Positions 766 through 18,937 are shown, counted from the first letter of the stretch. The stretch: DNA of 64,000 nt from an uncultured Leptospirales bacterium (GCA_964392365.1 CAYMPH010000010.1:69387-133386), one strand, 5' to 3'. The notes: generated by a model not told the origin, from the letters alone. A program made the numbers and translations.

Positions 766-1121
766 TTTAAAAAAAATTTGTTCCATCCGGATTGTTTTTA
801 AGAGATTGTTATTCCTGCTGATAAAACTATTCTCATAGTCAATAACCGTTATTTAAGATAGAAACTCAAACTCCTTCAATTCAGTAGCAAAATTAAATTT
901 CAAGCTGTTCGTGAAACACTTCAACACTCTTTTAATTCCTCTGTCTGTCAACTCTCTTTTAGAATCTAACGGAAATATTTAAAAATTTTATTCTCAATAA
1001 GTTATTACTTTATAAACAATAAAGCAGTTAGAAATTATAAAAAATGATTAGAAAAAAATTATAACCTTATAGATATAGAGTTCAATAAAGAAGTTCATCA
1101 ATTTTTTTTACTTCTTTCAAC

Positions 1122-2453
1122 TTATTTAAAAAATTTCATAAATTTAATAGCCATCCCCAGTTCACATGTATTTTCAAGATACCCAAGATTTATTGGATTA
1201 TTGATGCAATCTTGATTTTTAAATTCATGAATACAAAAATTATAAATTGAACAACCTTCTTTTATATTACCAGAGTATAGGTAATTAAATAAATAATGCA
1301 GCCCCATATGAAAAAGATTTTTTTTAACATATAAATCCTTCTGCATATAATCTGGATGATTTTCTAAATAAAAAAATACATAGCTACCATCAAGTATTGT
1401 AGTATCATCTTGAATCAAAGGGGGTGGGAAATGACTAATACAATTTTTAAAAAGAGTCACAGCATCTATCTTATCTAAATCAAATAATGTAAAAATGTAA
1501 TGAGGTAAAATTTTATTTTGAATACGTTTTTCTAAAAAATTATATTTATCAAGAAAAAATCTTAACAATTCATCATCATTTATACTCTTTGCTACATCTC
1601 TTTTTAGCCCTATTAGATAGTTATGAAAGTCAATAATTTGAGGATTTTTCATTTCTTCAAAGTAAATATCTTGCAACTGAGTAATTAATCCATAGTTGAT
1701 GTTATCTTTGGGGAAAGTTTTTAATAATTGCTCATACTTTTTTATTAAATTAAAAAAAGTAAAACCAGGAAATGGATGTTGCAGAGAAATATCAGCAATA
1801 ATTATAAACGGGGAAAGACTATAATTATTTATTCGCATTAATTCCATTAAAATTTGATATTTAAATGGAACTAATTTCAGGTCTGTTTCCTTACCCATTC
1901 TATTACTATTAGTATTTTCAATAATAAAAGCAATACCTTCATTTATAACATCTTCTCCAATTTCAAATGAATGTTTTTCATCCATAATTGATATTTCTAT
2001 TGATGGTATAACCGATTTATATGGATTTCAAGGTAATTCATCAGAAACTTTATTACAGTTAATTGAACCAATCTTAAAATTTTCATTAATATATGAATCA
2101 CTATATTTGAATTTATTTTTAAAATTTTTACCTTGCCGGTTATTCCAATTTTTAAAACAATCAATAAACTTCTTTAAATTTATTTTTTCCAATTTATCAA
2201 AATTTTCAAAAAAAGGAACTTTGGATTTATCAGTTTGAGCCAGTTCAATTATTATTAAAATATAATACAAATATCCTTCGTAATGATACAAGGAATTAAA
2301 TTGTATATAATAATGGATGTATTCATGCAAAAGAAGTGGCAATACTTCAGGATTTATTGCGTCTTTTTCAATTAAAACTTTTTGACCAACCACCTCAATA
2401 ATATTCTTCATAAAATTGTAGTTTGAGAAATCAGAAAATAATTCAGTATCCAT
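1122..2453 (-). pseudogene. HEXXH zinc-metallopeptidase-like gene interrupted by one in-frame TGA (2028-2030)
   Basis: Track ORFs 2028..2453 (LLHEYIHYY) and 1122..1985 (INEGIAF) are in one frame. They are separated only by TGA plus 14 sense codons (...DELP*NPYKSVIPSIEISIMDEK...). Confidence 0.6.
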
Positions 2454-2807
2454 TTTTTCCTCTTCATTATATGAAATACAAAAATTTGATAAAAATACTT
2501 TTATAGTTTTTTAAAATAATTCTATTATCAATTTACTAATTGATAATATGCATAAAGTCTGTTAATAATGATGAGGAATGAAATACAAAACATCATAATC
2601 ACTATCAAAACCGTTTTATAAATACTTTTTATTCGTATACTCTTTTTTTTTAAGTTTGACTTATTTTGTTATATCTTACAGACAATGTAAGTTGTACACA
2701 ATGGCAATAAAAATATTATTTGTCCATCCATGTCTGGACAAAGTGAAAAAAAAATGGCTAATATTGATTTCACGGAAATTCCACATTGGGCTAAAAGATG
2801 GGTTCAA

Positions 2808-2844
2808 CGTCATATACACCAAGGGACGTTAGGCTAAAAACGCC
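2808..2844 (+). repeat. attC-like right half (R' core GTTAGGC at 2828-2834) preceding the DUF6615-like gene
   Basis: CGTCATATACACCAAGGGACGTTAGGCTAAAAACGCC contains a GTTRRRY core. AAACGCC (2838-2844) is complementary to GGCGTTT just after the gene's stop (3677-3683). Confidence 0.55.
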
Positions 2845-2868
2845 GTGTAATTTACTGAGGTATAATAA

Positions 2869-3672
2869 ATGAAACTTTGTGACACTTTTAGGAAACTTTC
2901 TTTTGAAACTTGGTACAAACTATATTCAGCAAAAACTGTTGATATGCAATTAGGTGAGGAAACAATTACTGATATTAATCTCCTTGAGCTTAAATTAAAA
3001 CATGGGAATGAAATAATAACAAAAACATTTACAAAACCAAAAGAATCAAATACTGGTGCTGATTGGGAATGGTGGTTAACAGGAAAATCCAAAAAATGGC
3101 TTGGAATAAGAATTCAGGCTAAAATATTAAATCATAAAACTAATAAATATGAACATTTGCATTATTATAAAAATAATAAACAAAAAACTAAAAAATATCA
3201 ATCCGATAGATTAGTTAAATCAAGCATGTCAGATTCAATAAAAAGAATTCCTTTATACTGTTTATATTCTTATTGGGATAATTTAAATTATAATGTTAAA
3301 TGGAAATGTGGTTCATACCCTGAAGTAATAGATAGTTACGGTTGCTCATTTATTAGTGCCTATGATGTCGTAAAGCTTCGTCAAGGAAATAAATGTAATT
3401 TATCGGATGTGTTAGATTACATGATTCCATGGCATTGTATTATCTGCTGTAAAGGTTTTGGTGGAGATGATTTGCCCAGTAGAGCATTAAATACAATTAT
3501 GGAATTAACTAAAATTTCATCTATAGTAGAAAATCCAAAAAATAAACCAAAATTTAAATTATATGATGAACCACCAGAGTATGTTAAATTATTACTAAGT
3601 AATGATTTAACTGAATTAACGGATGAGCATTTGAGAACAATAACAATTATCAATGAAAATTCAAATGAATAA
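2869..3672 (+). CDS. DUF6615-like PD-(D/E)XK nuclease-fold protein
   Basis: Motifs GEETITD...KPKESNTGADWEWW...IRIQAKIL (E..GAD..Q-A-K). Confidence 0.7.
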   Translation: MKLCDTFRKLSFETWYKLYSAKTVDMQLGEETITDINLLELKLKHGNEIITKTFTKPKESNTGADWEWWLTGKSKKWLGIRIQAKILNHKTNKYEHLHYYKNNKQKTKKYQSDRLVKSSMSDSIKRIPLYCLYSYWDNLNYNVKWKCGSYPEVIDSYGCSFISAYDVVKLRQGNKCNLSDVLDYMIPWHCIICCKGFGGDDLPSRALNTIMELTKISSIVENPKNKPKFKLYDEPPEYVKLLLSNDLTELTDEHLRTITIINENSNE

Positions 3673-3675
3673 TCA

Positions 3676-3715
3676 TGGCGTTTCATCGTCTCCAGACACG
3701 TTGTTTGAAATGCCA
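3676..3715 (+). repeat. Collapsed (internally deleted) attC-like site between two cassette genes
   Basis: TGGCGTTTCA-tcgtctccagacacgttgtt-TGAAATGCCA imperfect inverted repeat. It contains GTT at 3700-3702 but no AAC left core. Confidence 0.5.
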
Positions 3716-3743
3716 CACAAACTTATTTTAAAAAACCGCATCC

Positions 3744-5504
3744 ATGGAAGTTTGGAATGAATATAAAATGAAATTTTTACCATTTAATATCGACGTAAAA
3801 TACAATGTACAATTAAAGATAAATCAAAATAATAATTTTGTTTCCGGAGAACTTATTTTATCACCAAGCAAATTACCAAAACTAAGAATTATTGAATCAG
3901 TAATGAATAATGAGAAACTTTACAGCCTATTAAGTAAGAAAAACAATCTAAAACTAATTACATGCAAATCAGGAAACGAAAATTTTACATTAATCGATTG
4001 TGACATATATGATGATTTAATTTATCCTAAATATATCATTCTTGGTAATCCTTTTACTAAATATATTGATTTAAAATTTAATGGGGCATATATCTGCTTA
4101 AAGAACTTTAATGAATGGTTTATTAATAAAAGGGAAATAAAAAATTCCGTAAAAGGTTTCAAAAATAATATTTCTATGAAAGCTTTTAAATTCAAAATTA
4201 AAACAAGAACTAATAGAATTATTGAAATTTCAAATCGATACAATTGTGTCCCAAAACAAGATGATATTGATAAACAAAAGATTTTCATTGAAGAGTTTCC
4301 AACTATTATAATTAAACCAATAGATGATAGTTTTTCTTTAGATGAAATAATAAATTTTGATTATGATATAAGAATGATTTTTTCATTTCTTATTGGCGAA
4401 TATTCTAATACACTTTATTTATGGGGTTCTATAAAAGATGAAAATGGATATAATCAGTTATTGCCAATTTATTATTCGTGTAATTATATTTTAACAAATG
4501 GTTTAAGCAATTATAGAGAAGGCTTAATGCAGTATCGTTATCTTATTGAAAATAAAAAATTTAAACCTATATTTTCAAATTACTTTTCTAATATAAATTT
4601 TACAAAGGTATGGTCTCGATTATTCGGGATATTGAGTTATTCTGGTATTTGGCAATATGAAATATTAGGATATGTAAGCATTCTTAACAAATATGTTGAA
4701 AGTTATTCAAAAGGGAAAGGTGAAGTATTCCCAGAATCTTCATTTAAATATATTAAAGATGGACTCGTTAAAAAATTAGAAGAATTATTAAAAGATATAA
4801 AAAAAACTGATACGAATGAAAATATCTCTAAGACAATAAAAAATTCAATATTAAAAATTCCTAATACTGACATTGTTTCTTTTCAAGATAAATTTGACTT
4901 ATGGTTTTCTAAAATAAACAATGATATTAAGCAGATAATTAATTTCACAAAAGCTGACTTTAAGGTTTTAAAAGAAATTAGAGATGCGGCAGCTCATGGA
5001 AAGAATATTGATTATGGCTATGACCTTACTGGGATTTATAAACTTAACTACAAATTAACCTTGTTGCTTTATCACTTAGTTTATCTTGATTTAGGTTTAA
5101 GTGGGAGTGATTTTTTACAAAATCTATCTTTGTCAATTCATTCTTTAATAAGAAATTCGGATATTAATCAGAAACATCTTGATAGAGTTTCAGGAAGAAT
5201 CGATTTTATAAAAGTTGATGATACTACATTCGCAAAAATAAAATTATGTAAAAAATATGATATTATTCTTGAGAAAAATATAGAAAAAGAACTCTATATT
5301 TTTAATTATGAATTAACAAAATTCCTTCAAAATAATTGGCCTAAAGTAAGTGATACTTTTCATGATGTAAGAGATTACATAAAACATTTATATTCTGGGA
5401 ATGTTAATGAAGTAATATACAAAACAGCATATATTGAGAATAAGAATGAAGCTATTATGATATTTGGTTTATGTATAGTTGTAAAAATGAATTATTCTTC
5501 ATGA
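3744..5504 (+). CDS. apeA: ApeA-family protein (ApeA N-terminal domain + HEPN RNase domain), predicted anti-phage
   Basis: 586 aa with a beta-rich N-terminus and a C-terminal HEPN motif R-x4-H (EIRDAAAHG), followed by YLDLG-type helices; matches ApeA size and layout. Confidence 0.7.
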   Translation: MEVWNEYKMKFLPFNIDVKYNVQLKINQNNNFVSGELILSPSKLPKLRIIESVMNNEKLYSLLSKKNNLKLITCKSGNENFTLIDCDIYDDLIYPKYIILGNPFTKYIDLKFNGAYICLKNFNEWFINKREIKNSVKGFKNNISMKAFKFKIKTRTNRIIEISNRYNCVPKQDDIDKQKIFIEEFPTIIIKPIDDSFSLDEIINFDYDIRMIFSFLIGEYSNTLYLWGSIKDENGYNQLLPIYYSCNYILTNGLSNYREGLMQYRYLIENKKFKPIFSNYFSNINFTKVWSRLFGILSYSGIWQYEILGYVSILNKYVESYSKGKGEVFPESSFKYIKDGLVKKLEELLKDIKKTDTNENISKTIKNSILKIPNTDIVSFQDKFDLWFSKINNDIKQIINFTKADFKVLKEIRDAAAHGKNIDYGYDLTGIYKLNYKLTLLLYHLVYLDLGLSGSDFLQNLSLSIHSLIRNSDINQKHLDRVSGRIDFIKVDDTTFAKIKLCKKYDIILEKNIEKELYIFNYELTKFLQNNWPKVSDTFHDVRDYIKHLYSGNVNEVIYKTAYIENKNEAIMIFGLCIVVKMNYSS

Positions 5505-5521
5505 ATGCTTAACCTTCCTTT

Positions 5522-5546
5522 GCATTTCATATGTCTGGTGTATGTG
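5522..5546 (+). repeat. attC-like left half after apeA with the AAC core missing
   Basis: GCATTTCATAT-GTCTGGTGTATGTG matches the reverse complement of 3692-3713 (GCATTTCAAAC-AACGT-GTCTGG) except for two substitutions and a 5-nt gap removing AACGT. Confidence 0.5.
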
Positions 5547-5687
5547 CTGCGATTGCGTAAAGACTTGTATACCCCTACAAAGTCGGAATGGGAGAATGCC
5601 AAACGGAATAAAATTTGTTGAGCTTATTCATATACTGACGGGACGAAATATGTCTGAAAATGAAAAATCTATTGACAGACATAAAAC

Positions 5688-5720
5688 TATAATGCAATAA
5701 ATATAATGCAATAAATATAA
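5688..5720 (+). promoter_or_regulatory. 14-bp tandem duplication (TATAATGCAATAAA x2 + TATAA) containing -10 boxes, downstream of TTGACA (5672-5677)
   Basis: Read directly from sequence; lies upstream of the RBS (GGGGGAG) of the 5741 gene. Confidence 0.5.
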
Positions 5721-5740
5721 ATCAAATAAGGGGGAGTATT

Positions 5741-7450
5741 ATGAAAAGATATATTTCATTTTTTTCTATTCTACTTTTTGTTTTGAACTGTTATATAATT
5801 TTTGCTGAAACACCTGGGAAATATACAAATTATAAGGTCAAGCAAGGTGATTCATTAGTAAAAATATCTGAGAAGTTTTATTTAAACGGCTCAAATAATA
5901 ATGATGGGAAAATCAGTAAGAAATGGATTTTAATTTATGATACGAATAAAAATACCTTACCTAAAATAGAAATAACTGGTTTTAATTTAGATGCTTATGT
6001 AAAATTAAATATTGGTCAAGAACTTCGAATCCCACCAATTTCGATTAACCAAACACAAAAAGTTATTAATGAAACATTAAACAGACATCTAAAAAAAGCT
6101 ATAGAACAGCATTATGAACAATACTTGGCTAATAACTACAAAGAAGAAATTAAAAATCATAAAACACCTTTAGAATTTATATATAGTGAAAATAAATCAG
6201 GAAAGCTTAAAATAAATAAAGAGTTTTATGGAAGTGATATAAAACTCACCGATGGAACAATAATACCATCTACATGTATCAATGACTATAACTTATTTCC
6301 ATACCGAATAATTCAAAATCCTGATGCAAAAAAAACTATTTTCATCTTTCCAGAAAGTCATACTGATTTTGGAAGTAATAGATATGATAAATATTTATTA
6401 CTGAATTCTATTGCTGACTATAACAATATAAAAAATTTTCATGTATTTCTTGAATCAATGGATAGCGAGTTTGATAAAGAAAGATACTTTGATAATTATG
6501 AAAAGTTAAAAAATAAAATAGACTCATCAATAATACCAATAAAAAAATTTGATATCCTTTGTTCAGAATATAAGTCTTTCAGAGATAGTTCTAAATTTAG
6601 GGCAGCGATTAATCCATCCATGCTATTCTTTTATACTAAAAAAACATGTACAATTAGTGGCTCAGAGAAATACTCATCAATAAAAAAATTCGAGGATGAG
6701 TTGAATAATTTATTCAAAAATATAAAGACTAATAATGCAATAGAAATAAATAGATTAATTAAAGAACTAATTAGAGAACGTGATAATGATATTTCTCAAT
6801 CATATGAAAGATTACCAGATAATACAATTGGACTAATGGATATTGGAGTCGCTCATACTTTTAATCAATTACAACTGGCTAAAGAAAGGACGAATTATAA
6901 TTTAGTAGTTTTTTATCATCCCACATTAAAGCAATATGAAATAGGAGATAAAAAAAATAGTAAACTATATGCACATAAACAAGAACCTTCTGAGCACACG
7001 TCCGTGTTTGAAAACATAGCTGTGATATCAAAACCATATAAACAAAAAGTATATAATCCACAAAATGGCAAAATAATTTATCAAGATTTTATTGAAGACA
7101 TACTTAATAAAGGAACTTATACAGAGGAAGAAAAAATATTAATAAGAATTCGTGCCAAAGAATTAAAAGAAAAAGAGTTCTTTGCTAAAGACAGATTATT
7201 AAATAAAGGTGAAAAATACTGCAACGTTTTCCCAATTTATGGGAAAGGGTTTTTAGGCCGTTTACGAAATGGTAATAAAATATCATTTATTTTTATACCA
7301 CAGAATGGATTACCAGAAGCATATATCAATGATTTAGTTGCTTCTGATAAAATTGATTCTAATGATGGCTATTTCTTTATAAAATTTTGGACGTCAATTC
7401 CTATTACAAAAAAAGATATTTATATGAAACTTAAAATTGCACAACAATAA
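5741..7450 (+). CDS. Secreted LysM-domain protein with a TIKI/EreA/ChaN/RRSP-like domain
   Basis: Signal peptide, then LysM (YKVKQGDSLVKISEKF), then IFPESH, VFLES, RERD and IGVAH motifs in superfamily order. Confidence 0.55.
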   Translation: MKRYISFFSILLFVLNCYIIFAETPGKYTNYKVKQGDSLVKISEKFYLNGSNNNDGKISKKWILIYDTNKNTLPKIEITGFNLDAYVKLNIGQELRIPPISINQTQKVINETLNRHLKKAIEQHYEQYLANNYKEEIKNHKTPLEFIYSENKSGKLKINKEFYGSDIKLTDGTIIPSTCINDYNLFPYRIIQNPDAKKTIFIFPESHTDFGSNRYDKYLLLNSIADYNNIKNFHVFLESMDSEFDKERYFDNYEKLKNKIDSSIIPIKKFDILCSEYKSFRDSSKFRAAINPSMLFFYTKKTCTISGSEKYSSIKKFEDELNNLFKNIKTNNAIEINRLIKELIRERDNDISQSYERLPDNTIGLMDIGVAHTFNQLQLAKERTNYNLVVFYHPTLKQYEIGDKKNSKLYAHKQEPSEHTSVFENIAVISKPYKQKVYNPQNGKIIYQDFIEDILNKGTYTEEEKILIRIRAKELKEKEFFAKDRLLNKGEKYCNVFPIYGKGFLGRLRNGNKISFIFIPQNGLPEAYINDLVASDKIDSNDGYFFIKFWTSIPITKKDIYMKLKIAQQ

Positions 7451-7461
7451 AGGATTTTTTT

Positions 7462-8226
7462 ATGACCAACAACTTTATAATTAGTGATTTTGCAACAACA
7501 TATTCATTAGTAATGGATATTAGAAATTCAACAGTAAAGACGATTGATTTTGATGACCAAAAAAAAATTAATTATTATAATGGTCTTTTTGAATGTTTTT
7601 CAAATTCATTAAAGGACGCAGCATTAAAAACTGAAATTATCAAATATACAGGTGATGGATTAATTATTTCTATTAGAGATAAAAGAAAAATATTAAATTT
7701 ATTAGCTTTCGTTTTTTCTATTAAATTAAATTTTAACAATATTATGTATAAAAAAATTACGATGTCAGATTGGAAGTTCCGTTTTTCCATAGCTGCTGGT
7801 AAAGATATGGAAGTATATTTTAATGATATGAAAGATTTTGTTGGCGATTCTATACGAAGAGCCACAAGAATTCAAAGTTTATGCAAGGATGATTATCTAA
7901 GAATTGATTCAGAGATATTAAATGTTTGCCTTGAAATTTGTAATAATAATATTGATTCTGAGAAAATTGAAATCAATCGAGAAGATAACATAAAAATAGA
8001 AAAAGATATAACTTCAATATCAAAAATTAAATTGGCAAAAAATAGCGATAAGATTATTGCAATATTAGAACCAGATAAATCTAATGATGAAAATGGGTAT
8101 GCTTATAAATTTGAAAAATTGTCTGTTAGTGATAGAGATTTATTAAAACGAAATACTGATGAAAGCGTCAACATGAAAGATGGATTTGATATTGGAAACG
8201 GATTGAAATTAGTATTTAATAACTAA
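7462..8226 (+). CDS. Stand-alone class III nucleotidyl (adenylate/guanylate) cyclase-domain protein
   Basis: LVMDIRNST, IIKYTGDG, FRFSIAAG and DFVGDSIRRATRIQS motifs; no TM or sensor domain; ~100-aa C-terminal extension. Confidence 0.85.
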   Translation: MTNNFIISDFATTYSLVMDIRNSTVKTIDFDDQKKINYYNGLFECFSNSLKDAALKTEIIKYTGDGLIISIRDKRKILNLLAFVFSIKLNFNNIMYKKITMSDWKFRFSIAAGKDMEVYFNDMKDFVGDSIRRATRIQSLCKDDYLRIDSEILNVCLEICNNNIDSEKIEINREDNIKIEKDITSISKIKLAKNSDKIIAILEPDKSNDENGYAYKFEKLSVSDRDLLKRNTDESVNMKDGFDIGNGLKLVFNN

Positions 8227-8233
8227 AATAAAT

Positions 8234-9274
8234 ATGTCAAGAAATGTAGATAATATTTCAATTAAAACATATATCTATTATGTAGAATATGATACTCACA
8301 ATAAAATCATAATTTTAAGAAACTGTGCTGATAATTCTTCTAAATCAATTCAGCTACCCAAGTACCTTAAAATTGAATCATTTGATATTTTTATTAATGA
8401 ATTAGCCATTTGTTTTTCTTATTTTAAAATCCCTCAAATAAAAATTGATTCAAAGATACCAGACATATATTATTTTTGGATAAATATAGAAAAAGAAAAT
8501 TGGGAAGAAGGATTTTTCATGTGCAATGGAGCGAATATTCAATATGATTATTTTCATGGAGTATTTTCATTACCAAATCCTTGGCATCATTTAACAAAAA
8601 AAAATATCTTCACAGTTAATCCTAATGAAATCTTTTTTCATTTTGGACATAATGAAACTAATGAAAATATAGTGAAATATTTTAAAGAAAAAAATATACA
8701 AAACAGCAATATACATAATAATGCATTTTCAAGTGCTAAAAATGTAAAAAATAATTTTTCAATTATAATGGGAAATATTCAAAATATTTCGGATAACAAT
8801 TCAGATTGCATTAATATCATCAATTTTTTAAAAAATCGATTAAAATTAAATGTATATACTGAAAAAGCTGATATTGATAATTGTTTTGCAGGTAATAATA
8901 ATTTTATAATTGTTATTGCTCATCATTCTGAGGGAAAAATTGAATTAAAGAATGGTGATGGGTATAATTTAGATAATAAAATATCATTTGCAAATAATGA
9001 AAAATATTTACAATTTTGGTGTTGCAATATTGATATTAAGCAAAGCATCAATTGGAATTTGATTAATAATATTACTTTAAATATTCATGTGTCTGAAGCG
9101 GCAACGAAATATTTTAATGAACATATATTATCTTTAATTATTAATGACGACAGTATGGGCTTGAAAACCCTAATTTTTGATAAAAAAATAAAGAAGGATG
9201 AAATATTTAATCTATTCACTTGTCTTGATAATACAATAATTGATAAAATCAATAAATCCCCTCTATTATTATAA
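8234..9274 (+). CDS. Hypothetical protein with a divergent CHAT/caspase-like His-Cys protease domain
   Basis: KENWEEGF (cf. LPWE), FIIVIAHHSEG (His strand), YLQFWCCN (Cys strand) and SEAATKYF helix, in CHAT order. Confidence 0.45.
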   Translation: MSRNVDNISIKTYIYYVEYDTHNKIIILRNCADNSSKSIQLPKYLKIESFDIFINELAICFSYFKIPQIKIDSKIPDIYYFWINIEKENWEEGFFMCNGANIQYDYFHGVFSLPNPWHHLTKKNIFTVNPNEIFFHFGHNETNENIVKYFKEKNIQNSNIHNNAFSSAKNVKNNFSIIMGNIQNISDNNSDCINIINFLKNRLKLNVYTEKADIDNCFAGNNNFIIVIAHHSEGKIELKNGDGYNLDNKISFANNEKYLQFWCCNIDIKQSINWNLINNITLNIHVSEAATKYFNEHILSLIINDDSMGLKTLIFDKKIKKDEIFNLFTCLDNTIIDKINKSPLLL

Positions 9275-9357
9275 TTTATTTAAGTTCATACTTGATTTTT
9301 CAATAAGATATTATACTATATTGCGATAAGAGCTAATAAGAGTAAAAAATATTTAAT

Positions 9358-11301
9358 TTATTTGCTCAACAAACCCATTTCATAAAGAAACCTCGAGGGT
9401 TTCTTAGGCCAGTTTCTATACTTTTCTGCATAACTAAGCGTTAATGTTTCAATTGTTCTTGTTATTGCAACAAAACAATTTCGCCGTTCTTCTTCCATTT
9501 CAAGACTTCTATCTCCATTTTTAATACTTTGAAAAGAAGGTAGCTCATCTTCGACAAGTCCAATAAGATAAACATGATCAAATTCCTTACCTTTAGCTGC
9601 ATGGATAGTCATAAGAATTATTGTATTAGGTTTTGGAGTTGATTCTTTCGAACGCATTTGTAGTTCTTGCAAAAATGCCTCCAAGGTGATCTGTTCCCCT
9701 AAACTCAATTTTATATCTCTCAATAATTCATTCCATACTAATTTTTCTTCATCAAAACGAGCAAATGCTTCAACGTAAGCATTATCTTCATCAGACTGTT
9801 TAGTTTTAGTTAATGAATCAAACCAAGTTAACGCAAATCTGCTGAACTTTTCAAAATCTCTACTCTTTATTAAACAATTTAATATCTCATTGATAATACT
9901 TTTCACTCCATTTCCTATGTTTTTTTGGCTAACTAATGTTAACCAACTTTGCAAAAAACCTATATTTAAAGCTTGGGCTTGTGAAATTACTTTTTCTAAA
10001 TCTACTTCAATTAAAGTTAACTGTAAGAATGAACCATTTACAGCTTCTAAATAATGAAGATTATGAATATCAGTGGCAAGATGTAAAATAGAATGAAGCC
10101 AGATGAAAGGGGTACTTTCAAATTCATCTTTGCGTTGAGAAATAAAGGCAATTAAATTATTTTTATTTAAAGCGTTATATACTGTATCAAGCAATTTGCG
10201 ATTACGTCCTAAAATAACTATTTTTGATAGATGCTCAAAATGAAATTTCTTAATATCTTCTGCAATTCCATTTGCTTCAGCCTCAAAATTGGGAAAACAG
10301 TTTAATAATCGAACTGTATTTTCACTAAGAGTAGGACGAAATGCTTCGAGTGGTTTTTTATCTGTTGTTCTTAAAAAGTTATGCTGGATTAGATTATTCG
10401 CTAAATTAACAATTTCAGGGGGACATCTATAATTCATGGGCAATTGTATCACTTTTGGTGAAAAATTTGTGACAAATTCTTTTAGACGTTCATGACTTGC
10501 TCCTTTCCATTGGTAAATAATCTGATCATCATCAGCAACAATAAACAAATTACGATGTATATTTTCCGTAAGCGCAGTAATAAGACCATATTGTGCTTGA
10601 TCAGTGTCTTGAAATTCGTCTAAACAAATATATTGATAAACCGTACGATAACGTTTAGCAAAAGCAGGAAATTTAGTAAATAATTGATATGTTTTAAAAA
10701 TCAAAGAGTTAAAATCTAAAGCGTTCCGCTTATTTAATTCATTTTCATATGCAGGATAGATAATAGCAATCCTCTCCCCAAATTGTTTATCTGAAAATAT
10801 TTCCCTGCAATTTTCAGGTGAAATAAGCAATGATTTAAGCCGTTGTATAACAAGCAAAGTTTTTTTATCTAAATTGCTTACTATTGAACTGCTTTTTTTT
10901 GACTTTTCTACTGCTTCATCTAAAACAGCTTGTAGATCATTATTTTGAGAATAAATTTGAAAACTGGGATTTATTCCTAAATGAGTACCGTGTTGACGTA
11001 AGACATCTGAACAAAACGAATGAAAAGTTCCTAAAAAAAGACGATCTTCCTGTCCAGGAACTAATAAAGCTACACGATTTCGCATTTCATCAGCTGCTTT
11101 ATTCGTAAATGTTAAACCTAAAATTCGAAAATTACTCCCTATGCTATATTCCAATAAACTTGCGATACGACAAGTTAATACTCTCGTCTTTCCTGATCCT
11201 GGTCCAGCTAAAACTAATAGAGGACCATCTCCCCATTCGGCAACTTGTTTTTGAATTGGGCTTAATTCTTCAAAAGCCCTTTTTAATTCTATTGTACGCA
11301 T
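9358..11301 (-). CDS. gajB: UvrD/PcrA-like SF1 helicase, Gabija GajB-like
   Basis: AGPGSGKT, LTFTNKAA, DEFQD, NYRC, MTIHAAKGKEF and EERRNCFVAITR motifs; overlaps the 3' end of the OLD nuclease gene. Confidence 0.85.
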   Translation of the reverse strand: MRTIELKRAFEELSPIQKQVAEWGDGPLLVLAGPGSGKTRVLTCRIASLLEYSIGSNFRILGLTFTNKAADEMRNRVALLVPGQEDRLFLGTFHSFCSDVLRQHGTHLGINPSFQIYSQNNDLQAVLDEAVEKSKKSSSIVSNLDKKTLLVIQRLKSLLISPENCREIFSDKQFGERIAIIYPAYENELNKRNALDFNSLIFKTYQLFTKFPAFAKRYRTVYQYICLDEFQDTDQAQYGLITALTENIHRNLFIVADDDQIIYQWKGASHERLKEFVTNFSPKVIQLPMNYRCPPEIVNLANNLIQHNFLRTTDKKPLEAFRPTLSENTVRLLNCFPNFEAEANGIAEDIKKFHFEHLSKIVILGRNRKLLDTVYNALNKNNLIAFISQRKDEFESTPFIWLHSILHLATDIHNLHYLEAVNGSFLQLTLIEVDLEKVISQAQALNIGFLQSWLTLVSQKNIGNGVKSIINEILNCLIKSRDFEKFSRFALTWFDSLTKTKQSDEDNAYVEAFARFDEEKLVWNELLRDIKLSLGEQITLEAFLQELQMRSKESTPKPNTIILMTIHAAKGKEFDHVYLIGLVEDELPSFQSIKNGDRSLEMEEERRNCFVAITRTIETLTLSYAEKYRNWPKKPSRFLYEMGLLSK

Positions 11302-13229
11302 GATGGTGCAGCCTTCGAGACTATGTCCGAGATGATATTACTAAAAAATACAGGTATGCGAGAACTATTTATTTTATTTTCACGAAGTTTTTCAATCAAT
11401 TCATTCATATAACCTATTTTATCTTTTTTTATTTCAGAAGCAAGCATATTATAAAACTCAGGGTCAGTCTGGTCTATCGTTAAACTAATTTTATGTTTAC
11501 TAAGAATTTCTAAGTAATCTTGCATAAATCCGTTTTTTATAAGAAACATTTCCAAATCTGATTTTTCTTCTGGTATTGGAAGTACAAGTTTTTTAATTTC
11601 TTCAGTAGTGATTCCATATCCTTCAACTTGTTTTAGAAACTTTAGCCCTCCTTCATCATTATCACAAAACATAATCCATGGTATCTCAAAATTTTGTGCT
11701 AAACCAACAAATGCACCTGGTGAACCATTATTCTGAAAGTCTATAACGCTTATTCCGAATTGGTCTAATGGCTTGCCTAACAAATCTGCAAAATAATGGA
11801 TCAATAGATATTCACTTTGTCCTTCACATAGCAACCATGCACATGCAAATAGTATTTCACCTCTAACGCGTTTTGCATATGTATTAAGATCATTTAATTC
11901 ATCATCGCTTATAAAGTGTTGTGATTCATTATAAAGTTTTTTTATTTGGTCATGAACATCTTTTTGCTCTGGATAAATTTGAAGGAGAGACCTATATTCC
12001 TTTTGCTCCATTTTACCTTTGACATTAAGTTTTGAAATTACACTTTGATAATCATATTTTGTTGCGTGATTTTTACAAAATTTGGATAATTCCTCAGATT
12101 GAGGAAGTTTAGTAGAAAATTTACGCTTTATATAAAATACTTTAGAGGCTGATCCATTTTTGCGAAACAAGCGAAGTTGAGTGAATGGAATTTCCTGAAT
12201 AAAATATGGAGAATGACTTGAAATAATTTTTTGACTTTTTAGCTCATTCAAATTTTTAGATAATGCACGTGTTGCTTGAGGATGAAGATGTGCTTCTGGT
12301 TCTTCTAAAGCTAAAATTGCTTCGGTTTCTGGATAAAATGAAGGTTTTAGGAATACTTCGATGAAAGATTGAAAAAGAAAAAGTACAGACAAACTTTGTA
12401 TACCTTGTCCATGCCTGGAAATAGGAAAATTGAGTTCACTACCCCTTGCTTTAATTACAACCTCTGATTTTGACATCAAATCCCAATGATTTAAAGGTAA
12501 GGCTTGAATTGATGTATTTTGTTCATTTCCAAGTGTAATAACTTTTTGAATATTACTTAATACTGTTCTCACTTGCTCAAACCTTGGATCGGCTTTTAGT
12601 AGTTCATCATTAAGCTTAGTTAAATCTTCGTTTATTGACTTTCTTTGATCTTCACTTATATCAATATCACGAAGTATTCGCCCCCAGTATTGCGATCGAG
12701 AGGAAAACTCATTATCTGAGTCACGTAGAGCTGATAAATAAAATAAACGAATGTAAGAATGAAACTTCGGCAAGTTAGATTGACTTTTACCTTTTCCTCC
12801 TAACGGTTCACCATTTAAATCAAGAAATTCCCAATTATTGTTTATAACTTTTGAAATAGGATCAAATTTACTCGATGCTCGTAAACCAATAGAATCTAAA
12901 TCATTTATTGGATCAGTTTGAATTATTTCGTTTAATGAATTTCCCAAATCTTCAGGCCATTCATCAGATTTATCTTCTCGAAACCAAAGTTCTATAACAA
13001 TACCATCGCTGGTTTGTGGTGAATCACCAACTTTAGACATATAATAGTCATACTCATCGAATGGTTTTCCACGACCGGCTTGATTCCGTGGCAATAATAT
13101 TTTTAATGCATCAAGTAAAGCTGTTTTGCCTGAGTTATTTTCACCAACTAAAACAGAAGTATCATCAATAGGAATTACTACGTCCTGTAAACAACGAAAG
13201 TTTTTTATACTAATCTCTCTTAGCCTCAT
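11289..13229 (-). CDS. gajA: OLD-family ABC-ATPase + TOPRIM nuclease, Gabija GajA-like
   Basis: GENNSGKT Walker A, LEEPEAHLHP Walker B, and TOPRIM LLCEGQSE and CDND motifs; tandem with UvrD (class 2 OLD). Confidence 0.85.
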   Translation of the reverse strand: MRLREISIKNFRCLQDVVIPIDDTSVLVGENNSGKTALLDALKILLPRNQAGRGKPFDEYDYYMSKVGDSPQTSDGIVIELWFREDKSDEWPEDLGNSLNEIIQTDPINDLDSIGLRASSKFDPISKVINNNWEFLDLNGEPLGGKGKSQSNLPKFHSYIRLFYLSALRDSDNEFSSRSQYWGRILRDIDISEDQRKSINEDLTKLNDELLKADPRFEQVRTVLSNIQKVITLGNEQNTSIQALPLNHWDLMSKSEVVIKARGSELNFPISRHGQGIQSLSVLFLFQSFIEVFLKPSFYPETEAILALEEPEAHLHPQATRALSKNLNELKSQKIISSHSPYFIQEIPFTQLRLFRKNGSASKVFYIKRKFSTKLPQSEELSKFCKNHATKYDYQSVISKLNVKGKMEQKEYRSLLQIYPEQKDVHDQIKKLYNESQHFISDDELNDLNTYAKRVRGEILFACAWLLCEGQSEYLLIHYFADLLGKPLDQFGISVIDFQNNGSPGAFVGLAQNFEIPWIMFCDNDEGGLKFLKQVEGYGITTEEIKKLVLPIPEEKSDLEMFLIKNGFMQDYLEILSKHKISLTIDQTDPEFYNMLASEIKKDKIGYMNELIEKLRENKINSSRIPVFFSNIISDIVSKAAPSCVQ

Positions 13230-13487
13230 TTATTATTTCCTATAATATATTTAAATGAAATTCTACATGAGTCATATTGCTTCTTTCTCTATACTTAATC
13301 CTTCTTATAAATTTCATTAAAACAAATAGTTTTAAAAAAAAATGTTTATCAATGAGACAAATTGAAGCATATAATAAGCTTAAAGCAACTATAATTTCAT
13401 TGAGAAATTTTTAATATTTAAAATTTACATTAAATATTTTTCTATTTTCTCATCTCGATAGTATTAACATATAGAGGATAAAAAAAA

Positions 13488-13694
13488 ATGAACTGTATTG
13501 ATTGTAAAAACTACTGTGGCTTCCTGAAAATGGATATAAATTACGTGAAATGCAATTATTGGAAAAATATTGATTACAGAGCTTCCGTTGGAACAAGGGC
13601 GATTGTTTGCCCCAGGGAACCTATTGAACAAGATGAGGATAGGGTTATATTTCAGGCTATTGAGTTTTTTTTTCTTTTTCAAAATTCATCCTGA
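13488..13694 (+). CDS. Small Cys-rich hypothetical protein (CxxCxxxC...C...CP)
   Basis: RBS AGAGGA upstream; a degenerate paralog lies at 15217-15370. Confidence 0.5.
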   Translation: MNCIDCKNYCGFLKMDINYVKCNYWKNIDYRASVGTRAIVCPREPIEQDEDRVIFQAIEFFFLFQNSS

Positions 13695-13801
13695 TGAATA
13701 TTAAAAGTTTAAAGCAACAATAGTTCTTGACTCTTAATCTACTAACAAGAAATGATAAATAAATTTTTAGAAAAATAACTAAAATTCCAAGAGAGAAAAA
13801 A

Positions 13802-14041
13802 ATGGAAAATAATAAACCAGAACAAGAGACATATAAAGGTTTAACGCTGAACTCGTCTATCACAAAAGATGAAAAAGGAAATATCAATATTAACGTTACC
13901 TGTGACGAAAAGGAAATGTTTCATCATGTCGCAGTATCACCAAAAACTATAAATAAAAATGTTTCAATAGATCATTTAATCAATATAATTCATAAAGGTT
14001 TAATCGAATATGCAAAAGAAGTAATTGATAAAAACCCTTGA
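13802..14041 (+). CDS. Hypothetical protein, 79 aa
   Basis: ORF track; purine-rich upstream region; no recognisable motif. Confidence 0.45.
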   Translation: MENNKPEQETYKGLTLNSSITKDEKGNININVTCDEKEMFHHVAVSPKTINKNVSIDHLINIIHKGLIEYAKEVIDKNP

Positions 14042-14119
14042 ATAGAACTTTAGAAATAACCCACCTAATAACAGAAAATGTTAATTAAACTTTGTTCTGT
14101 TAATAGAATAGGATAAAAA

Positions 14120-14743
14120 ATGAAAGAAGAAGCCCATCCTTGGAAATGGTTTGCCCCCAAAGACAGTACAACTTTAATTGTTGGAACATTCCCGACAGCT
14201 AAACACAATTGGCATTTCGACTTTTTCTACCCGAACACAGCCAATTTATTCTGGAAACTATTATCAAAAATTGCATTTACAGAGCTTAAGTATTTTTCAG
14301 GAGATGAAGCAGTAACTGAACGTAAAGACATTCTACGGAAATTGAAAGTAAGCGTAACCGACATGGGATTGAACGTAATTAGACACGACGAGAGTTCTTT
14401 AGATGAAAAACTTGTTCCGCTTAAATACATGGATATTTTTCAAATACTTAACGAAAACCCTTCCATTCAAAAAATAATTTTCACAAGTAGCTCTGGAAAA
14501 GTAAGTGCATCCAAATGGTTCATCAACTATCTTGCCAAACAAAAAATTCAACATAAATTTCCCAAAGGTAAAAAACCAATTAGAAGTCTTCTGCATTACA
14601 AAGACAAACAAATTCAATTAGTAATTTTATACTCTACCTCCCGAAGAGCAGCAAACAGAATTTCATTTGAACAGCTAATAGAGATGTATAAAAACGAATT
14701 TTATTTCACCGAACCACAGGAGCTCCCTTTAAAATGGATGTAG
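14120..14743 (+). CDS. Uracil-DNA glycosylase superfamily protein (family 6 / hypoxanthine-DNA glycosylase-like)
   Basis: HPW...LIVGTFP...FFYPNTANLFW and LYSTS motifs. Confidence 0.8.
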   Translation: MKEEAHPWKWFAPKDSTTLIVGTFPTAKHNWHFDFFYPNTANLFWKLLSKIAFTELKYFSGDEAVTERKDILRKLKVSVTDMGLNVIRHDESSLDEKLVPLKYMDIFQILNENPSIQKIIFTSSSGKVSASKWFINYLAKQKIQHKFPKGKKPIRSLLHYKDKQIQLVILYSTSRRAANRISFEQLIEMYKNEFYFTEPQELPLKWM

Positions 14744-14812
14744 GTGTTGGTGTCTGGTGAACAAAATTAATAATCATTTTTCCCAAAAGGTTGAATATTA
14801 AAATAATTTTTA

Positions 14813-15151: not shown

Positions 15152-15216
15152 TTTGTTACCTCCAATAATTTTTTTTTAATTACATTTTCGTTCTTAATAA
15201 TATAGAGGATAAAATT

Positions 15217-15370: not shown

Positions 15371-15398
15371 ATAGGATAATGAAAAAAATTATTGATTT

Positions 15399-16154: not shown

Positions 16155-16169
16155 AAATTCTTATTTCAT

Positions 16170-18869: not shown

Positions 18870-18937
18870 AATAGTTCGCTCCTGATTTTTAAATAGTTTC
18901 TGTAAAATTTATTTATAAGATAAATCATAGTCATCTA

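What the first reader, a model, noticed from the sequence alone, without database searches (positions are those of the whole stretch)
5741..9274. Candidate new nucleotide-signalling system: class III cyclase + caspase(CHAT)-like protease + secreted LysM-TIKI protein in a defence island
Seen: three co-oriented genes separated by 11 and 7 nt, lying between ApeA and Gabija. The middle gene is a sensor-less class III cyclase. It keeps both metal Asp residues (VMDIR, TGDG), the Lys and Asp that select adenine in adenylate cyclases (IKY, DFVG) and the transition-state Arg, but has Arg where Asn is normally found (IRRATR vs VNxAxR). The last gene has a His strand and a Cys strand in CHAT order. Known: stand-alone cyclase + effector pairs act in anti-phage signalling (Pycsar: PycC + cNMP-binding effector), and CHAT/caspase-like proteases are effectors in several defence systems. 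Inference: this may be a cyclase-triggered proteolytic defence or conflict module. No cNMP-binding domain is recognisable, so it does not fit Pycsar. The envelope-located LysM protein might be the sensor, or an unrelated passenger.
Basis: partly seen in the sequence, partly recalled or inferred. Interest (0 to 1): 0.8.

Follow-up and report, generated by a model that had tools for sequence, protein, structure and literature searches.

The report
Rare cyclase-centred three-gene cassette
Three tightly packed genes in an AT-rich defence-gene neighbourhood form a real, conserved but very rare cassette: its middle gene is a true though unusual nucleotide cyclase, while what its two unannotated partners do, and whether it fights phages, is still unproven.

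Summary
The three ORFs are as described: 5741-7450, 7462-8226 and 8234-9274, with gaps of 11 and 7 nt. They lie between a marginal ApeA-like HEPN gene and a clear Gabija system.

**g2** is a divergent class III nucleotidyl cyclase. A family profile hits solved adenylate cyclases (E~1e-5). An AF2 model (pLDDT >90 over residues 1-165) matches only class III cyclases, Pycsar PycC among them. Both metal Asps, the adenine-type Lys/Asp pair and the transition-state Arg are kept. The catalytic Asn is Arg, and this is invariant family-wide.

Most relatives are unannotated single proteins fused to PPR/TPR repeats, and they are not defence-linked.

The closest relative (37% identity) sits in the same three-gene arrangement on an unrelated metagenome contig, with g1 at 31% and g3 at 27% identity. 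The cassette, including the exported LysM-like protein, is therefore one unit.

**g3**'s caspase fold could not be tested because AF2 failed. A caspase-3 His-strand match (P~0.005) and a conserved His/Cys pair give weak support.

**g1**'s TIKI label is unsupported.

The cassette is not Pycsar: no CNBD effector is present. A defence role rests on context alone.

The parts
5649..5712 (.). Putative regulatory region upstream of g1. It holds a 13-nt inverted repeat (5649-5661 / 5671-5683) spanning a TTGACA, followed by two tandem 14-nt copies (5685-5712) that each contain TATAAT. A strong Shine-Dalgarno sequence (AAGGGGGAG) follows.
   Evidence: Function is inferred only. No equivalent motif was seen upstream of the L143 copy.
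5741..7450 (+). g1: 569-aa exported protein. It is a conserved cassette member of unknown biochemical function.
   Evidence: ORF. Orthologue on L143 at 31% identity, E=1e-68. No family hit apart from a partial LysM match.
5741..5815 (+). g1 N-terminal hydrophobic segment (aa 3-25), either a signal peptide or a signal anchor.
   Evidence: Kyte-Doolittle 19-residue window maximum of 2.18 at residue 4. The same feature is present in the L143 orthologue. g2 and g3 have none.
5831..6034 (+). g1 LysM-like region (aa 31-98). The start (YKVKQGDSLVKIS) and end (LNIGQELRIP) signatures are separated by an insert.
   Evidence: Pfam LysM 9.7e-5, 22.7 bits, profile positions 1-16 only. NCBIfam YneA 3.5e-5. 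The orthologue has no Pfam hit.
6218..6940 (+). g1 central conserved domain (aa 160-400). Motifs invariant in both orthologues are P204-E205-x-H207-x-D209, L237-E238-S239-M240-D241 and G369-x-A371-H372.
   Evidence: Invariant columns. No similarity to the TraB/PrgY family protein YbaP (hhalign P=0.25). No Pfam or PDB hits.
7462..7956 (+). g2 catalytic domain (aa 1-165), class III nucleotidyl cyclase fold. Key residues are D19, D65 (metals), K61, D125 (adenine-type pair) and R136 (transition state). R132 replaces the catalytic Asn, and D115 is an extra family invariant.
   Evidence: Profile against PDB, E=9.7e-6 to 5o5k and 5e-4 to 8jsz. AF2 pLDDT >90. The top 50 Foldseek hits are all class III cyclases, best E=2.6e-9. 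Residues.
7957..8226 (+). g2 C-terminal tail (aa 166-254). It replaces the PPR/TPR repeats found in most relatives and is conserved only with the L143 orthologue.
   Evidence: The phmmer alignment to P0003 spans residues 8-244. The tail is unmodelled, pLDDT <50. No Pfam hit.
8234..9274 (+). g3: 346-aa cytoplasmic protein with no detectable family. It is the candidate receptor/effector.
   Evidence: ORF. Orthologue on L143 at 27% identity, E=1e-35. No Pfam, NCBIfam, PADLOC, PHROGs or PDB hits. AF2 failed with pLDDT 31.
8900..8935 (+). g3 candidate catalytic His strand (aa 223-234, NFIIVIAHHSEG). H230 is conserved.
   Evidence: hhalign places aa 224-242 on caspase-3 residues 87-105 of the construct, which is the His121 strand. 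Score 24.5, P=0.011. None of 300 shuffles and 1 of 330 real proteins reach it. Conservation.
9002..9031 (+). g3 candidate catalytic Cys strand (aa 257-266, KYLQFWCCNI). C264 is conserved and lies 34 residues after H230.
   Evidence: Evidence is at motif level only. The Cys strands were aligned only approximately in a zero-confidence greedy alignment.
3744..5504 (+). Context, not part of the cassette: 586-aa HEPN protein (RDAAAH at aa 413), ApeA-like. It is preceded by a DUF6615 gene at 2869-3672.
9358..13229 (-). Context, not part of the cassette: Gabija system, GajB at 9358-11301 and GajA at 11289-13229, convergent with g3.
   Evidence: (PADLOC 1.1e-253 and 4.9e-221).

Best explanation
This is a horizontally acquired three-gene operon built around a stand-alone, divergent class III nucleotidyl cyclase.

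Shown:
- g2 has the class III cyclase fold.
- It keeps a complete two-metal site (D19, D65), adenine-type specificity residues (K61, D125) and the transition-state Arg (R136).
- It carries a family-invariant Arg132 in place of the ribose-positioning Asn.
- g1, g2 and g3 are inherited together.
- g1 is exported or membrane-anchored, while g2 and g3 are cytoplasmic.

Inferred:
- g2, acting as a homodimer like other class III cyclases, converts a purine NTP (most likely ATP) into a nucleotide second messenger when triggered.
- g3 is the cytoplasmic receptor/effector. Its N-terminal ~170 residues would take over the sensing or regulatory role that PPR/TPR repeats play in the rest of the family. 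Its C-terminal half, with a caspase-type His strand and Cys strand, would execute a proteolytic response.
- g1, a peptidoglycan-tethered exported protein, acts at the envelope, either as the downstream target or executor, or as an envelope-side input.
- Given its position between a HEPN gene and Gabija in an AT-rich island, the most likely role is anti-phage or conflict signalling of the abortive-infection type.
For: Cyclase identity:
- A profile of 34 relatives hits only class III cyclases in the PDB, best E=9.7e-6. The alignment superposes the metal Asps, K/D, R, and N->R.
- The AF2 model with a 32-sequence alignment has pLDDT >90 for residues 1-165.
- Foldseek gives 182 PDB matches at E<=1e-3. 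The top 50 are all class III cyclases and include the Pycsar cyclases 8jsz and 7r65.
- Invariant or near-invariant residues are listed.

Unit of inheritance:
- P0003 is the only close g2 relative among 1.84 billion representative proteins.
- It lies on L143 between a g1 orthologue (31% identity, 1e-68) and a g3 orthologue (27%, 1e-35), with 4- and 3-nt gaps and different flanks.
- No other L143 gene has a homologue in the window.

Mobility and island context:
- Cassette GC is 22-26% against a 31.6% window mean. In L143 it is 27-28% against 31-46% in the flanks.
- Neighbours are Gabija and a HEPN protein.

Protease hint:
- The best hhalign match of the g3 pair to verified caspase-3 falls on the catalytic His strand.
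- H230 and C264 are conserved.

Localisation.

Precedent: a nucleotide signal activates a caspase-like protease in type IV Thoeris (bioRxiv 10.1101/2024.10.24.620036).
Against: - g3's fold is unknown. AF2 gave pLDDT 31.
- g3 has no hit to Peptidase_C14, CHAT or any PADLOC protease model, and none to the window's own clan-CD Peptidase_C11.
- The caspase-3 match is 19 columns long with probability 3.9%.
- His and Cys are conserved at about the background rate: 3 of 11 His, 3 of 8 Cys, against 28% overall identity.
- No nucleotide-binding receptor domain is recognisable anywhere in the cassette.
- No protein links exported g1 to cytoplasmic g2 and g3, as neither has a TM segment.
- The Asn->Arg change could alter or abolish cyclisation.
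- The wider g2 family is not defence-associated. Only 2 of 137 neighbours hit defence methylases, and the rest are mostly housekeeping. Its usual partner is a PPR/TPR region.
- Only two independent loci are known, and the L143 flanks are not classical defence genes.
- No PADLOC or PHROGs hit was found for any of the three genes.
Confidence: 0.35

Rival explanations
1. The cassette is an envelope or cell-wall signalling module and not an immune system. The cyclase makes a conventional second messenger such as cAMP. Together with g3, that messenger controls production or activity of the exported LysM-like protein g1, for example in wall remodelling, division control or surface adaptation. The cassette simply landed in a variable, AT-rich region.
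For: - g1 is exported, LysM-like, and strictly co-inherited.
- Its N-terminus resembles the LysM division inhibitor YneA, NCBIfam 3.5e-5.
- The wider g2 family sits among housekeeping genes.
- The L143 flanks are a transglutaminase-like lipoprotein, an HTH gene and fmt.
- The window beyond 20 kb is rich in surface proteins.
Against: - In the window the cassette is wedged between a HEPN gene and Gabija.
- It has atypically low GC in both hosts.
- It is extremely rare and patchy, with two loci. That pattern is more typical of accessory conflict genes than of envelope homeostasis.
Confidence: 0.25
2. g2 is not a messenger-producing cyclase. The invariant Asn->Arg (plus invariant Asp115) marks a family with a changed reaction, such as nucleotidyl transfer, NTP consumption, a non-cyclic product, or ligand binding only. 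g3 is then its regulator or sensor, the functional replacement of the PPR/TPR repeats, and not a protease.
For: - R132 and D115 are invariant across 34-49 relatives, while canonical cyclases have Asn at this position.
- 92 of 106 complete relatives carry C-terminal repeats, and short ones are followed by a detached PPR gene. The family's normal partner is therefore a sensor-like repeat region.
- No receptor domain for a cyclic nucleotide is detectable.
- g3 has no protease HMM hit.
Against: - All other catalytic determinants of cyclisation are retained: two Asps, K/D and the transition-state Arg.
- The fold is closest to active adenylate, guanylate and uridylate cyclases.
- The g3 His strand matches caspase-3 better than 329 of 330 unrelated proteins do.
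Confidence: 0.2
3. The cassette is a divergent Pycsar system: PycC plus an unrecognised effector.
For: - Structural similarity of g2 to the PycC cyclases 8jsz (E=6e-9) and 7r65.
- Profile hit to 8jsz at 5e-4.
- Defence-island location.
Against: - Pycsar is defined by a pyrimidine cyclase plus a CNBD-TM or CNBD-TIR receptor (PMC11224242). No CNBD, TM or TIR is present.
- No PADLOC Pycsar model hits g2.
- g2 keeps the adenine-type Lys/Asp pair.
- g2 scores better against mycobacterial adenylate cyclases than against PycC.
Confidence: 0.05
4. The three genes are unrelated neighbours, or spurious ORFs.
For: No family annotation exists for g1 or g3.
Against: - All three are conserved, in the same order and with near-abutting spacing, on an unrelated contig.
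- ORFs of 254-569 codons in DNA of ~25% GC do not arise by chance.
Confidence: 0.02

Closest known systems
Canonical class III adenylate cyclases (e.g. Mycobacterium Rv1625c/Cya: 5o5k, 4p2f, 7yz9; Ma1120)
   Same: - Same fold, and best sequence-profile and Foldseek matches.
- Both metal Asps, the Lys/Asp adenine-selecting pair and the transition-state Arg align.
   Different: - The catalytic Asn is an invariant Arg, and there is an extra invariant Asp115.
- There is no Pfam PF00211 hit for g2.
- g2 has no membrane, HAMP, GAF or other known sensor domain.
- It belongs to a separate unannotated clade, usually fused to PPR/TPR repeats.
Pycsar (PycC pyrimidine cyclase + CNBD-TM / CNBD-TIR effector; PMC11224242)
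   Same: - A stand-alone class III-type cyclase lies next to a candidate effector in a defence island.
- PycC structures are among the top structural matches.
   Different: - No cyclic-nucleotide-binding domain, TM or TIR effector is present.
- The specificity residues are purine-type.
- The cassette has three genes, one of them an exported LysM-like protein.
- No PADLOC hit was found.
Type IV Thoeris (TIR + caspase-like protease; bioRxiv 10.1101/2024.10.24.620036, PMC13243611)
   Same: The proposed logic is the same: a nucleotide-derived signal made by one enzyme activates a caspase-like protease encoded next to it.
   Different: - The signal generator here is a class III cyclase, not a TIR.
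- g3's caspase fold is unproven and matches no caspase HMM.
- A third, exported component is present.
Type III CRISPR-associated SAVED-CHAT and TPR-CHAT (Craspase) proteases (from my own knowledge, not tested here)
   Same: A cyclic-nucleotide or complex-activated clan-CD protease acts as an immune effector. g3 has a His...Cys order with a spacing compatible with clan CD.
   Different: No Cas10, SAVED or TPR domain is detectable, and no CHAT HMM hit was found.
Prokaryotic cyclase-PPR/TPR fusion proteins (the unannotated family found here, P0004-P0085, L003-L142)
   Same: g2 is a member of this clade by sequence, with E down to 5e-33 and shared invariants D19, K61, GDG, D115, R132 and R136.
   Different: - g2 and P0003 lack the repeats and have GDGL instead of GDGW.
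- They carry a private ~85-aa tail and are flanked by g1 and g3. Neither of these has a homologue in the 140 other loci.

Membership tests
Class III nucleotidyl cyclase superfamily | Palm-type cyclase catalytic fold | tested here: met
   AF2 pLDDT >90 for residues 1-165. The top 50 Foldseek PDB hits are all class III cyclases at prob 1.00, best E=2.6e-9.
Class III nucleotidyl cyclase superfamily | Two metal-binding aspartates | tested here: met
   D19 and D65 align with the metal Asps of Rv1625c-type cyclases. D65 is invariant and D19 nearly invariant in the family.
Class III nucleotidyl cyclase superfamily | Substrate-specifying pair (Lys/Asp for ATP) and transition-state Arg | tested here: met
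   K61, D125 and R136 align to the corresponding residues in 5o5k and 4p2f and are present in g2.
Class III nucleotidyl cyclase superfamily | Transition-state / ribose-positioning Asn (VNxAxR) | tested here: not met
   R132 occupies the Asn column and is invariant in all 34-49 relatives.
Class III nucleotidyl cyclase superfamily | Significant match to Pfam PF00211 (Guanylate_cyc) | tested here: not met
   g2 has no Pfam hit at E<=0.1. One relative, P0006, has a precomputed PF00211 hit.
Class III nucleotidyl cyclase superfamily | NTP cyclising activity | not testable with these tools
   Needs an enzyme assay.
Pycsar | Effector with a cyclic-nucleotide-binding domain fused to TM helices or TIR | tested here: not met
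   No cNMP_binding or TIR hit in g1 or g3, whole or as sub-domains. The only hydrophobic segment is g1's N-terminus. Definition taken from PMC11224242.
Pycsar | PycC-type cyclase recognised by defence-system models | tested here: not met
   No PADLOC hit for g2 at E<=0.1. Similarity to PycC (8jsz, 7r65) is at fold level only.
Pycsar | Pyrimidine (cCMP/cUMP) product | not testable with these tools
   The sequence shows an adenine-type K/D pair, which argues against it.
Caspase / CHAT (clan CD) protease, for g3 | Caspase-hemoglobinase fold | tested here: inconclusive
   The single-sequence AF2 model is unusable, pLDDT 31 and pTM 0.20.
Caspase / CHAT (clan CD) protease, for g3 | His (after a beta-strand, followed by Gly) then Cys (after a beta-strand) catalytic dyad | tested here: inconclusive
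   H230 and C264 are conserved in both known sequences. The His strand aligns to the caspase-3 His121 strand, score 24.5, reached by 0 of 300 shuffles and 1 of 330 real proteins. Background conservation of His and Cys is similar, and the Cys strand is not confidently aligned.
Caspase / CHAT (clan CD) protease, for g3 | Match to Peptidase_C14, CHAT or other clan-CD profiles | tested here: not met
   No Pfam, NCBIfam, PADLOC or PDB-sequence hit. hhalign against the window's Peptidase_C11 gave P=0.5.
TIKI / TraB / PrgY / ChaN superfamily, for g1 | Detectable homology to a family member or profile | tested here: not met
   No Pfam or NCBIfam hit. The PDB profile search gave only spurious repeat hits. 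hhalign against E. coli YbaP (PF01963, 8.8e-44) gave P=0.25, away from any catalytic motif. The ChaN and erythromycin-esterase branches were not tested.
TIKI / TraB / PrgY / ChaN superfamily, for g1 | Conserved His...Glu...His motif set | tested here: inconclusive
   H207, E238 and H372 are invariant in the two orthologues. With only two sequences at 33% identity this is weak. Correspondence to TIKI residues rests on memory.
LysM domain, for g1 | Pfam LysM match above gathering score | tested here: inconclusive
   g1 scores 22.7 bits against a 20.9 cut-off but covers only profile positions 1-16 of 43. The orthologue has no hit. Start and end signatures flank an insert.
Gabija (flanking system) | GajA (ATPase-TOPRIM) plus GajB (UvrD helicase) adjacent | tested here: met
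   PADLOC GajA 4.9e-221 and GajB 1.1e-253, with overlapping genes.
ApeA (flanking gene) | HEPN_Apea domain / ApeA model match | tested here: inconclusive
   PF18739 scores 24.2 bits against a 24.4 cut-off. An RDAAAH motif is present. No PADLOC hit.

The most novel reading that the evidence does not exclude
The cassette is a previously unrecognised three-component immune signalling system. A class III cyclase with an Arg-for-Asn active site makes a nucleotide messenger, possibly a non-canonical one. That messenger switches on a new, highly divergent caspase-like protease, and the response is coupled to an exported peptidoglycan-binding protein at the envelope. More broadly, the parent clade of cyclase-PPR/TPR fusion proteins, found in many bacterial and archaeal phyla, would be a new class of repeat-sensor-coupled nucleotide signalling enzymes.
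Probability: 0.2. Interest if true: 0.8.

Novelty: new variant of a known kind. Interest (0 to 1): 0.6.

Why it matters
If the mechanism holds, it would add a third way of generating the signal that activates caspase-like immune proteases in prokaryotes. TIR (type IV Thoeris) and Cas10 (SAVED-CHAT) are the known two. It would also add a cyclase-based defence distinct from Pycsar, and it would tie cytoplasmic nucleotide signalling to an exported wall-binding protein.

Independently of that, the work exposes an unannotated clade of class III cyclase homologues. These share an invariant Asn->Arg substitution and are mostly fused to PPR repeats, which are rare in prokaryotes. More than 140 loci were found across Armatimonadota, Chloroflexota, Planctomycetota and methane-cycling archaea. 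The chemistry and biology of this clade are completely unknown and directly testable.

Tried and rejected
**Direct family scans.** Pfam, NCBIfam, PADLOC and PHROGs gave nothing for g2 or g3, whether scanned whole or as sub-domains. g1 gave only a partial LysM hit.

**Word-indexed homology searches.** g2 and g3 returned only themselves. The same-strain contigs L001 and L002 added no diversity.

**PDB sequence and profile searches.**
- g2 and g3 alone: no hits.
- The full-length family alignment was swamped by PPR repeats, so it was redone on the trimmed domain.
- The g1 pair and g3 pair profiles found nothing real.

**Structure prediction of g3.**
- The single-sequence model was unusable, so no fold search was run on it.

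**Searches for cassette genes elsewhere.**
- g1 or g3 homologues in the 140 g2-family loci: none at E<=10.
- In all collected proteins: none.
- In IMG/VR viral contigs: none.
- In plasmids: none.
- In phage genomes: none.

**Context of the g2 family.**
- No conserved neighbour was found.
- There is no defence enrichment.

**Comparator tests.**
- g3 against the window's own clan-CD Peptidase_C11: no similarity.
- g1 against the TraB family protein YbaP: no similarity.
- g3 against the 289-aa partner of another stand-alone member, P0064: no similarity.

**Organism identification.** It failed: all tested window proteins are singletons at 90% identity, and there are no tRNA or Rfam hits.

**Signals and literature.**
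- The promoter and terminator scans were uninformative in this AT-rich DNA: 40 promoter-like sites against 33.6 expected.
- Literature searches found no description of this cassette, of DUF6615, or of cyclase-PPR proteins.
- The Pycsar founding paper was not held.
- No supplement gave a bacterial caspase-like sequence to compare with.

**Rejected ideas.**
- Pycsar membership, because no CNBD effector is present.
- 'g1 is a passenger', because it is co-conserved.
- Chance adjacency.

Full report
**Observation**

- g1, 5741-7450, 569 aa
- g2, 7462-8226, 254 aa
- g3, 8234-9274, 346 aa

The gaps are 11 and 7 nt. g1 is preceded by a strong Shine-Dalgarno sequence and g2 by AAGGA.

Downstream and convergent is an unambiguous Gabija pair, GajB at 1.1e-253 and GajA at 4.9e-221.

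Upstream is a 586-aa protein with an RDAAAH HEPN motif. Its HEPN_Apea score is just below Pfam's cut-off (24.2 against 24.4 bits) and no PADLOC ApeA model hits it. That gene is preceded by a DUF6615 gene.

The first 20 kb of the window has 27.0% GC, against 33.6% for the rest. The three genes are at 22-26%.

**g2 is a class III cyclase homologue**

g2 has no direct Pfam, NCBIfam, PADLOC or PDB sequence hit, and a word-indexed search of 5.8 billion proteins found only itself.

An exhaustive phmmer search of 1.84 billion representatives found 48 relatives sharing the N-terminal ~170 residues.

A profile of that domain hits only class III cyclases in the PDB:
- Rv1625c-type adenylate cyclases at E~1e-5
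- Ma1120
- a rhodopsin guanylyl cyclase
- the Pycsar uridylate cyclase 8jsz at 5e-4

With a 32-sequence alignment, AF2 models residues 1-165 at pLDDT >90. Foldseek returns 182 PDB matches at E<=1e-3. The top 50 are all class III cyclases and include PycC 8jsz and 7r65. The BFVD viral library likewise gives only cyclase domains.

The alignment to Rv1625c-type enzymes places the residues as follows:

| g2 residue | Aligns with |
|---|---|
| D19, D65 | the two metal-binding Asps |
| K61, D125 | the adenine-selecting Lys/Asp pair |
| R136 | the transition-state Arg |
| R132 | the catalytic Asn |

R132 is invariant in every relative, as is an additional Asp115. The substitution is thus a family trait under selection and not decay. 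The tail, residues 166-254, is unmodelled and matches nothing.

**The family g2 belongs to**

All members are unannotated ('hypothetical protein'). One has a precomputed PF00211 hit.

Genome and metagenome scans gave 140 loci in Armatimonadota, Chloroflexota, Planctomycetota, Acidimicrobiia, ANME/Methanosarcinales archaea and others.

Of 106 complete ORFs, 92 are 397-1020 aa. Of the 49 proteins in alignment A1 (the query plus its relatives), 31 carry PPR repeats, with PPR_3 down to 8e-71, or TPRs. The repeat region matches designer PPR proteins at 1e-157.

Where the cyclase ORF is short, the next gene is usually the detached PPR part.

The family has no conserved neighbour. Of 137 flanking proteins, only two hit defence methylase models. 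The rest are MFS transporters, glycosyltransferases, methyltransferases, radical-SAM enzymes, IF-2, HisG and the like.

One close PPR-type relative sits beside an Abi_alpha gene. One stand-alone member, P0064, is followed in two contigs by a 289-aa gene containing 'VLVLAHSQG', which may be an alpha/beta-hydrolase elbow but has no Pfam hit.

As a whole, then, the family is not a defence-island family. Its normal partner is a helical-repeat region.

**The cassette is conserved as a unit**

The only close relative of g2 is P0003 (37% identity over residues 8-244, also 'GDGL', also repeat-less). It lies on a JGI metagenome contig, L143, between a 580-aa and a 354-aa gene, with 4- and 3-nt gaps.

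The 580-aa protein is 31% identical to g1 (E=1e-68). It has the same N-terminal hydrophobic segment and the same invariant motifs. The 354-aa protein is 27% identical to g3 over its full length (E=1e-35).

The flanks differ: a DprA/SLOG-like gene, a transglutaminase-like lipoprotein, an HTH gene and fmt. No other L143 gene has a homologue in the window.

In L143 the cassette is again AT-rich relative to its flanks, 27-28% against 31-46% GC.

It also shows that the LysM-like protein is a component and not a passenger.

No g1 or g3 homologue occurs in the 140 other family loci, in viral contigs, in plasmids or in phage genomes. Two caveats apply. Only g2 had an exhaustive protein search. The word-indexed search with g3 returned only itself; at 27% identity its one known orthologue would be beyond that method's reach in any case.

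**g3**

No profile library or PDB search gives any hit, whether g3 is scanned whole or in halves.

AF2 on the single sequence failed, with pLDDT 31. The two-sequence alignment was not admissible. The caspase fold therefore could not be tested, and I ran no fold search on that model.

At sequence level, H230 and C264 are conserved. So are C31, H136, C217 and H297, which is 3 of 11 His and 3 of 8 Cys against 28% overall identity. Conservation alone is therefore uninformative.

I compared the g3 pair with human caspase-3 by profile. The caspase-3 sequence came from memory and was verified identical to 2j30_A. The single best local alignment puts g3 FIIVIAHHSEGKIELKNGD on VCVLLSHGEEGIIFGTNGP, the catalytic His121 strand. 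The score is 24.5 with P=0.011. None of 300 shuffles and one of 330 unrelated real proteins reach that score.

A greedy extension puts the Cys strands roughly opposite each other, but at zero confidence. The window's own Peptidase_C11 gives nothing.

My verdict is that g3 carries a caspase-type His-strand motif that is better than chance. It does not demonstrate the fold.

**g1**

Only g1 and its orthologue have a hydrophobic segment (residues 3-25). g2 and g3 have none.

The LysM hit is partial, and the domain appears split by an insert.

The central domain has invariant P-E-x-H-x-D, L-E-S-M-D and G-x-A-H motifs. These resemble, from memory, the His/Glu/His set of the TIKI/ChaN/erythromycin-esterase superfamily.

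No test supports homology. There is no Pfam or NCBIfam hit, no real PDB profile hit, and hhalign against the verified TraB-family protein YbaP gives P=0.25. The ChaN and esterase branches could not be tested.

**Mechanism**

Shown:
- a structurally intact class III cyclase core with a family-specific Asn->Arg change
- strict co-inheritance of three genes
- one exported and two cytoplasmic products
- low-GC, island-like placement beside Gabija and a HEPN gene

Inferred:
- g2 dimerises and makes a purine-derived nucleotide signal.
- g3 receives the signal and acts, possibly as a clan-CD-like protease.
- g1 works at the wall.

The nearest functional precedents are:
- type IV Thoeris, where a TIR-made N7-cADPR activates a caspase-like protease that cleaves EF-Tu (bioRxiv 10.1101/2024.10.24.620036; PMC13243611)
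- SAVED-CHAT in type III CRISPR (from my own knowledge)
- Pycsar for the cyclase side (PMC11224242)

The cassette fails the defining Pycsar feature, since it has no CNBD effector. It also matches no PADLOC model.

I put about 0.35 on the cyclase-to-effector defence model. I put 0.25 on a non-immune envelope signalling module, and 0.2 on an altered-chemistry enzyme for which g3 serves as regulator in place of the PPR/TPR repeats.

**Novelty and score**

No paper in the held library describes the cassette or the cyclase-PPR clade.

The cassette is best called a new variant of a known kind: nucleotide-signalling modules in defence islands. Two of its three parts have unknown fold.

It is very rare, with two independent loci, and unproven functionally. 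Against that, the cyclase assignment is solid, the co-conservation is clear, and the parent family is itself an unexplored enzyme clade.

Interest 0.6.

Noticed in passing
L003-L142 (e.g. L063:1953-3500, L005:5956-7608, L047:5941-7431): An unannotated prokaryotic protein family pairs an N-terminal class III cyclase-like domain (invariant Asn->Arg and Asp115) with C-terminal PPR/TPR repeats. It occurs in more than 140 loci across many bacterial phyla and in ANME/Methanosarcinales archaea. PPR repeats are unusual in prokaryotes. No literature was found.
   Followed up: partly
L146:729-2527 and L145:5001-6799: P0064, a stand-alone 306-aa member of the cyclase family, is followed after 8 nt by a 289-aa gene with a 'VLVLAHSQG' motif. 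This looks like an alpha/beta-hydrolase nucleophile elbow but has no Pfam hit. The pair occurs in two different contigs and may be another cyclase + effector pair.
   Followed up: partly
window 2869-5504: A DUF6615 gene (1.3e-15) lies 71 nt upstream of a 586-aa HEPN protein (RDAAAH; HEPN_Apea 24.2 bits against a 24.4 cut-off; no PADLOC ApeA hit). This may be a two-gene unit and not a classical single-gene ApeA. No paper mentions DUF6615.
   Followed up: partly
window 1-20000: This is an AT-rich block, 27.0% GC against 33.6% for the rest of the window. It holds the HEPN gene, the cassette, Gabija and many small ORFs without family hits (1122-2453 and 13464-20086). It looks like a variable or defence island, but no integrase or tRNA was found.
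   Followed up: partly
window 5520-5712: The g1 upstream intergenic region has a 39.7% GC patch (5520-5650), a 13-nt inverted repeat spanning a TTGACA (5649-5683), and two tandem 14-nt repeats each containing TATAAT (5685-5712). These may be an operator or promoter arrangement. There is no Rfam hit.
   Followed up: no
window 20091-41346: A cluster of large surface or secreted proteins:
- a 1290-aa Big_9/cadherin/Chlamydia-PMP protein
- an FG-GAP repeat protein
- a Peptidase_C11 (clostripain) with He_PIG and PPC domains
- an OMP beta-barrel
- a 3471-aa ORF at 30931-41346
   Followed up: no
L143:37-591: A stand-alone 184-aa DprA/SLOG-like protein (DNA_processg_A at 29.6 bits, equal to the cut-off; 'GGAIGADQ') lies about 200 nt upstream of the second cassette copy. 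Its GC is 46% against 27% for the cassette. Further downstream, beyond a transglutaminase-like lipoprotein gene, are an HTH_3 gene overlapping a 120-aa ORF, possibly a toxin-antitoxin pair.
   Followed up: no
window (whole): Every window protein tested, including likely housekeeping ones, is a singleton at 90% identity among 15 billion sequences. There are no tRNA or Rfam hits in 64 kb. The host is therefore an unsampled lineage, and its taxonomy could not be established here.
   Followed up: partly
L063:1140-1826: The closest PPR-type relative of g2 (36% identity) has an Abi_alpha (PF14337, 1.6e-24) gene immediately upstream. It is the only defence-flavoured neighbour seen among the close relatives.
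   Followed up: no
window 7227-7247: This is the only terminator-like hairpin in 5400-9500, and it lies inside the g1 coding region. It is probably a chance match (0.5 expected in shuffles).
   Followed up: no
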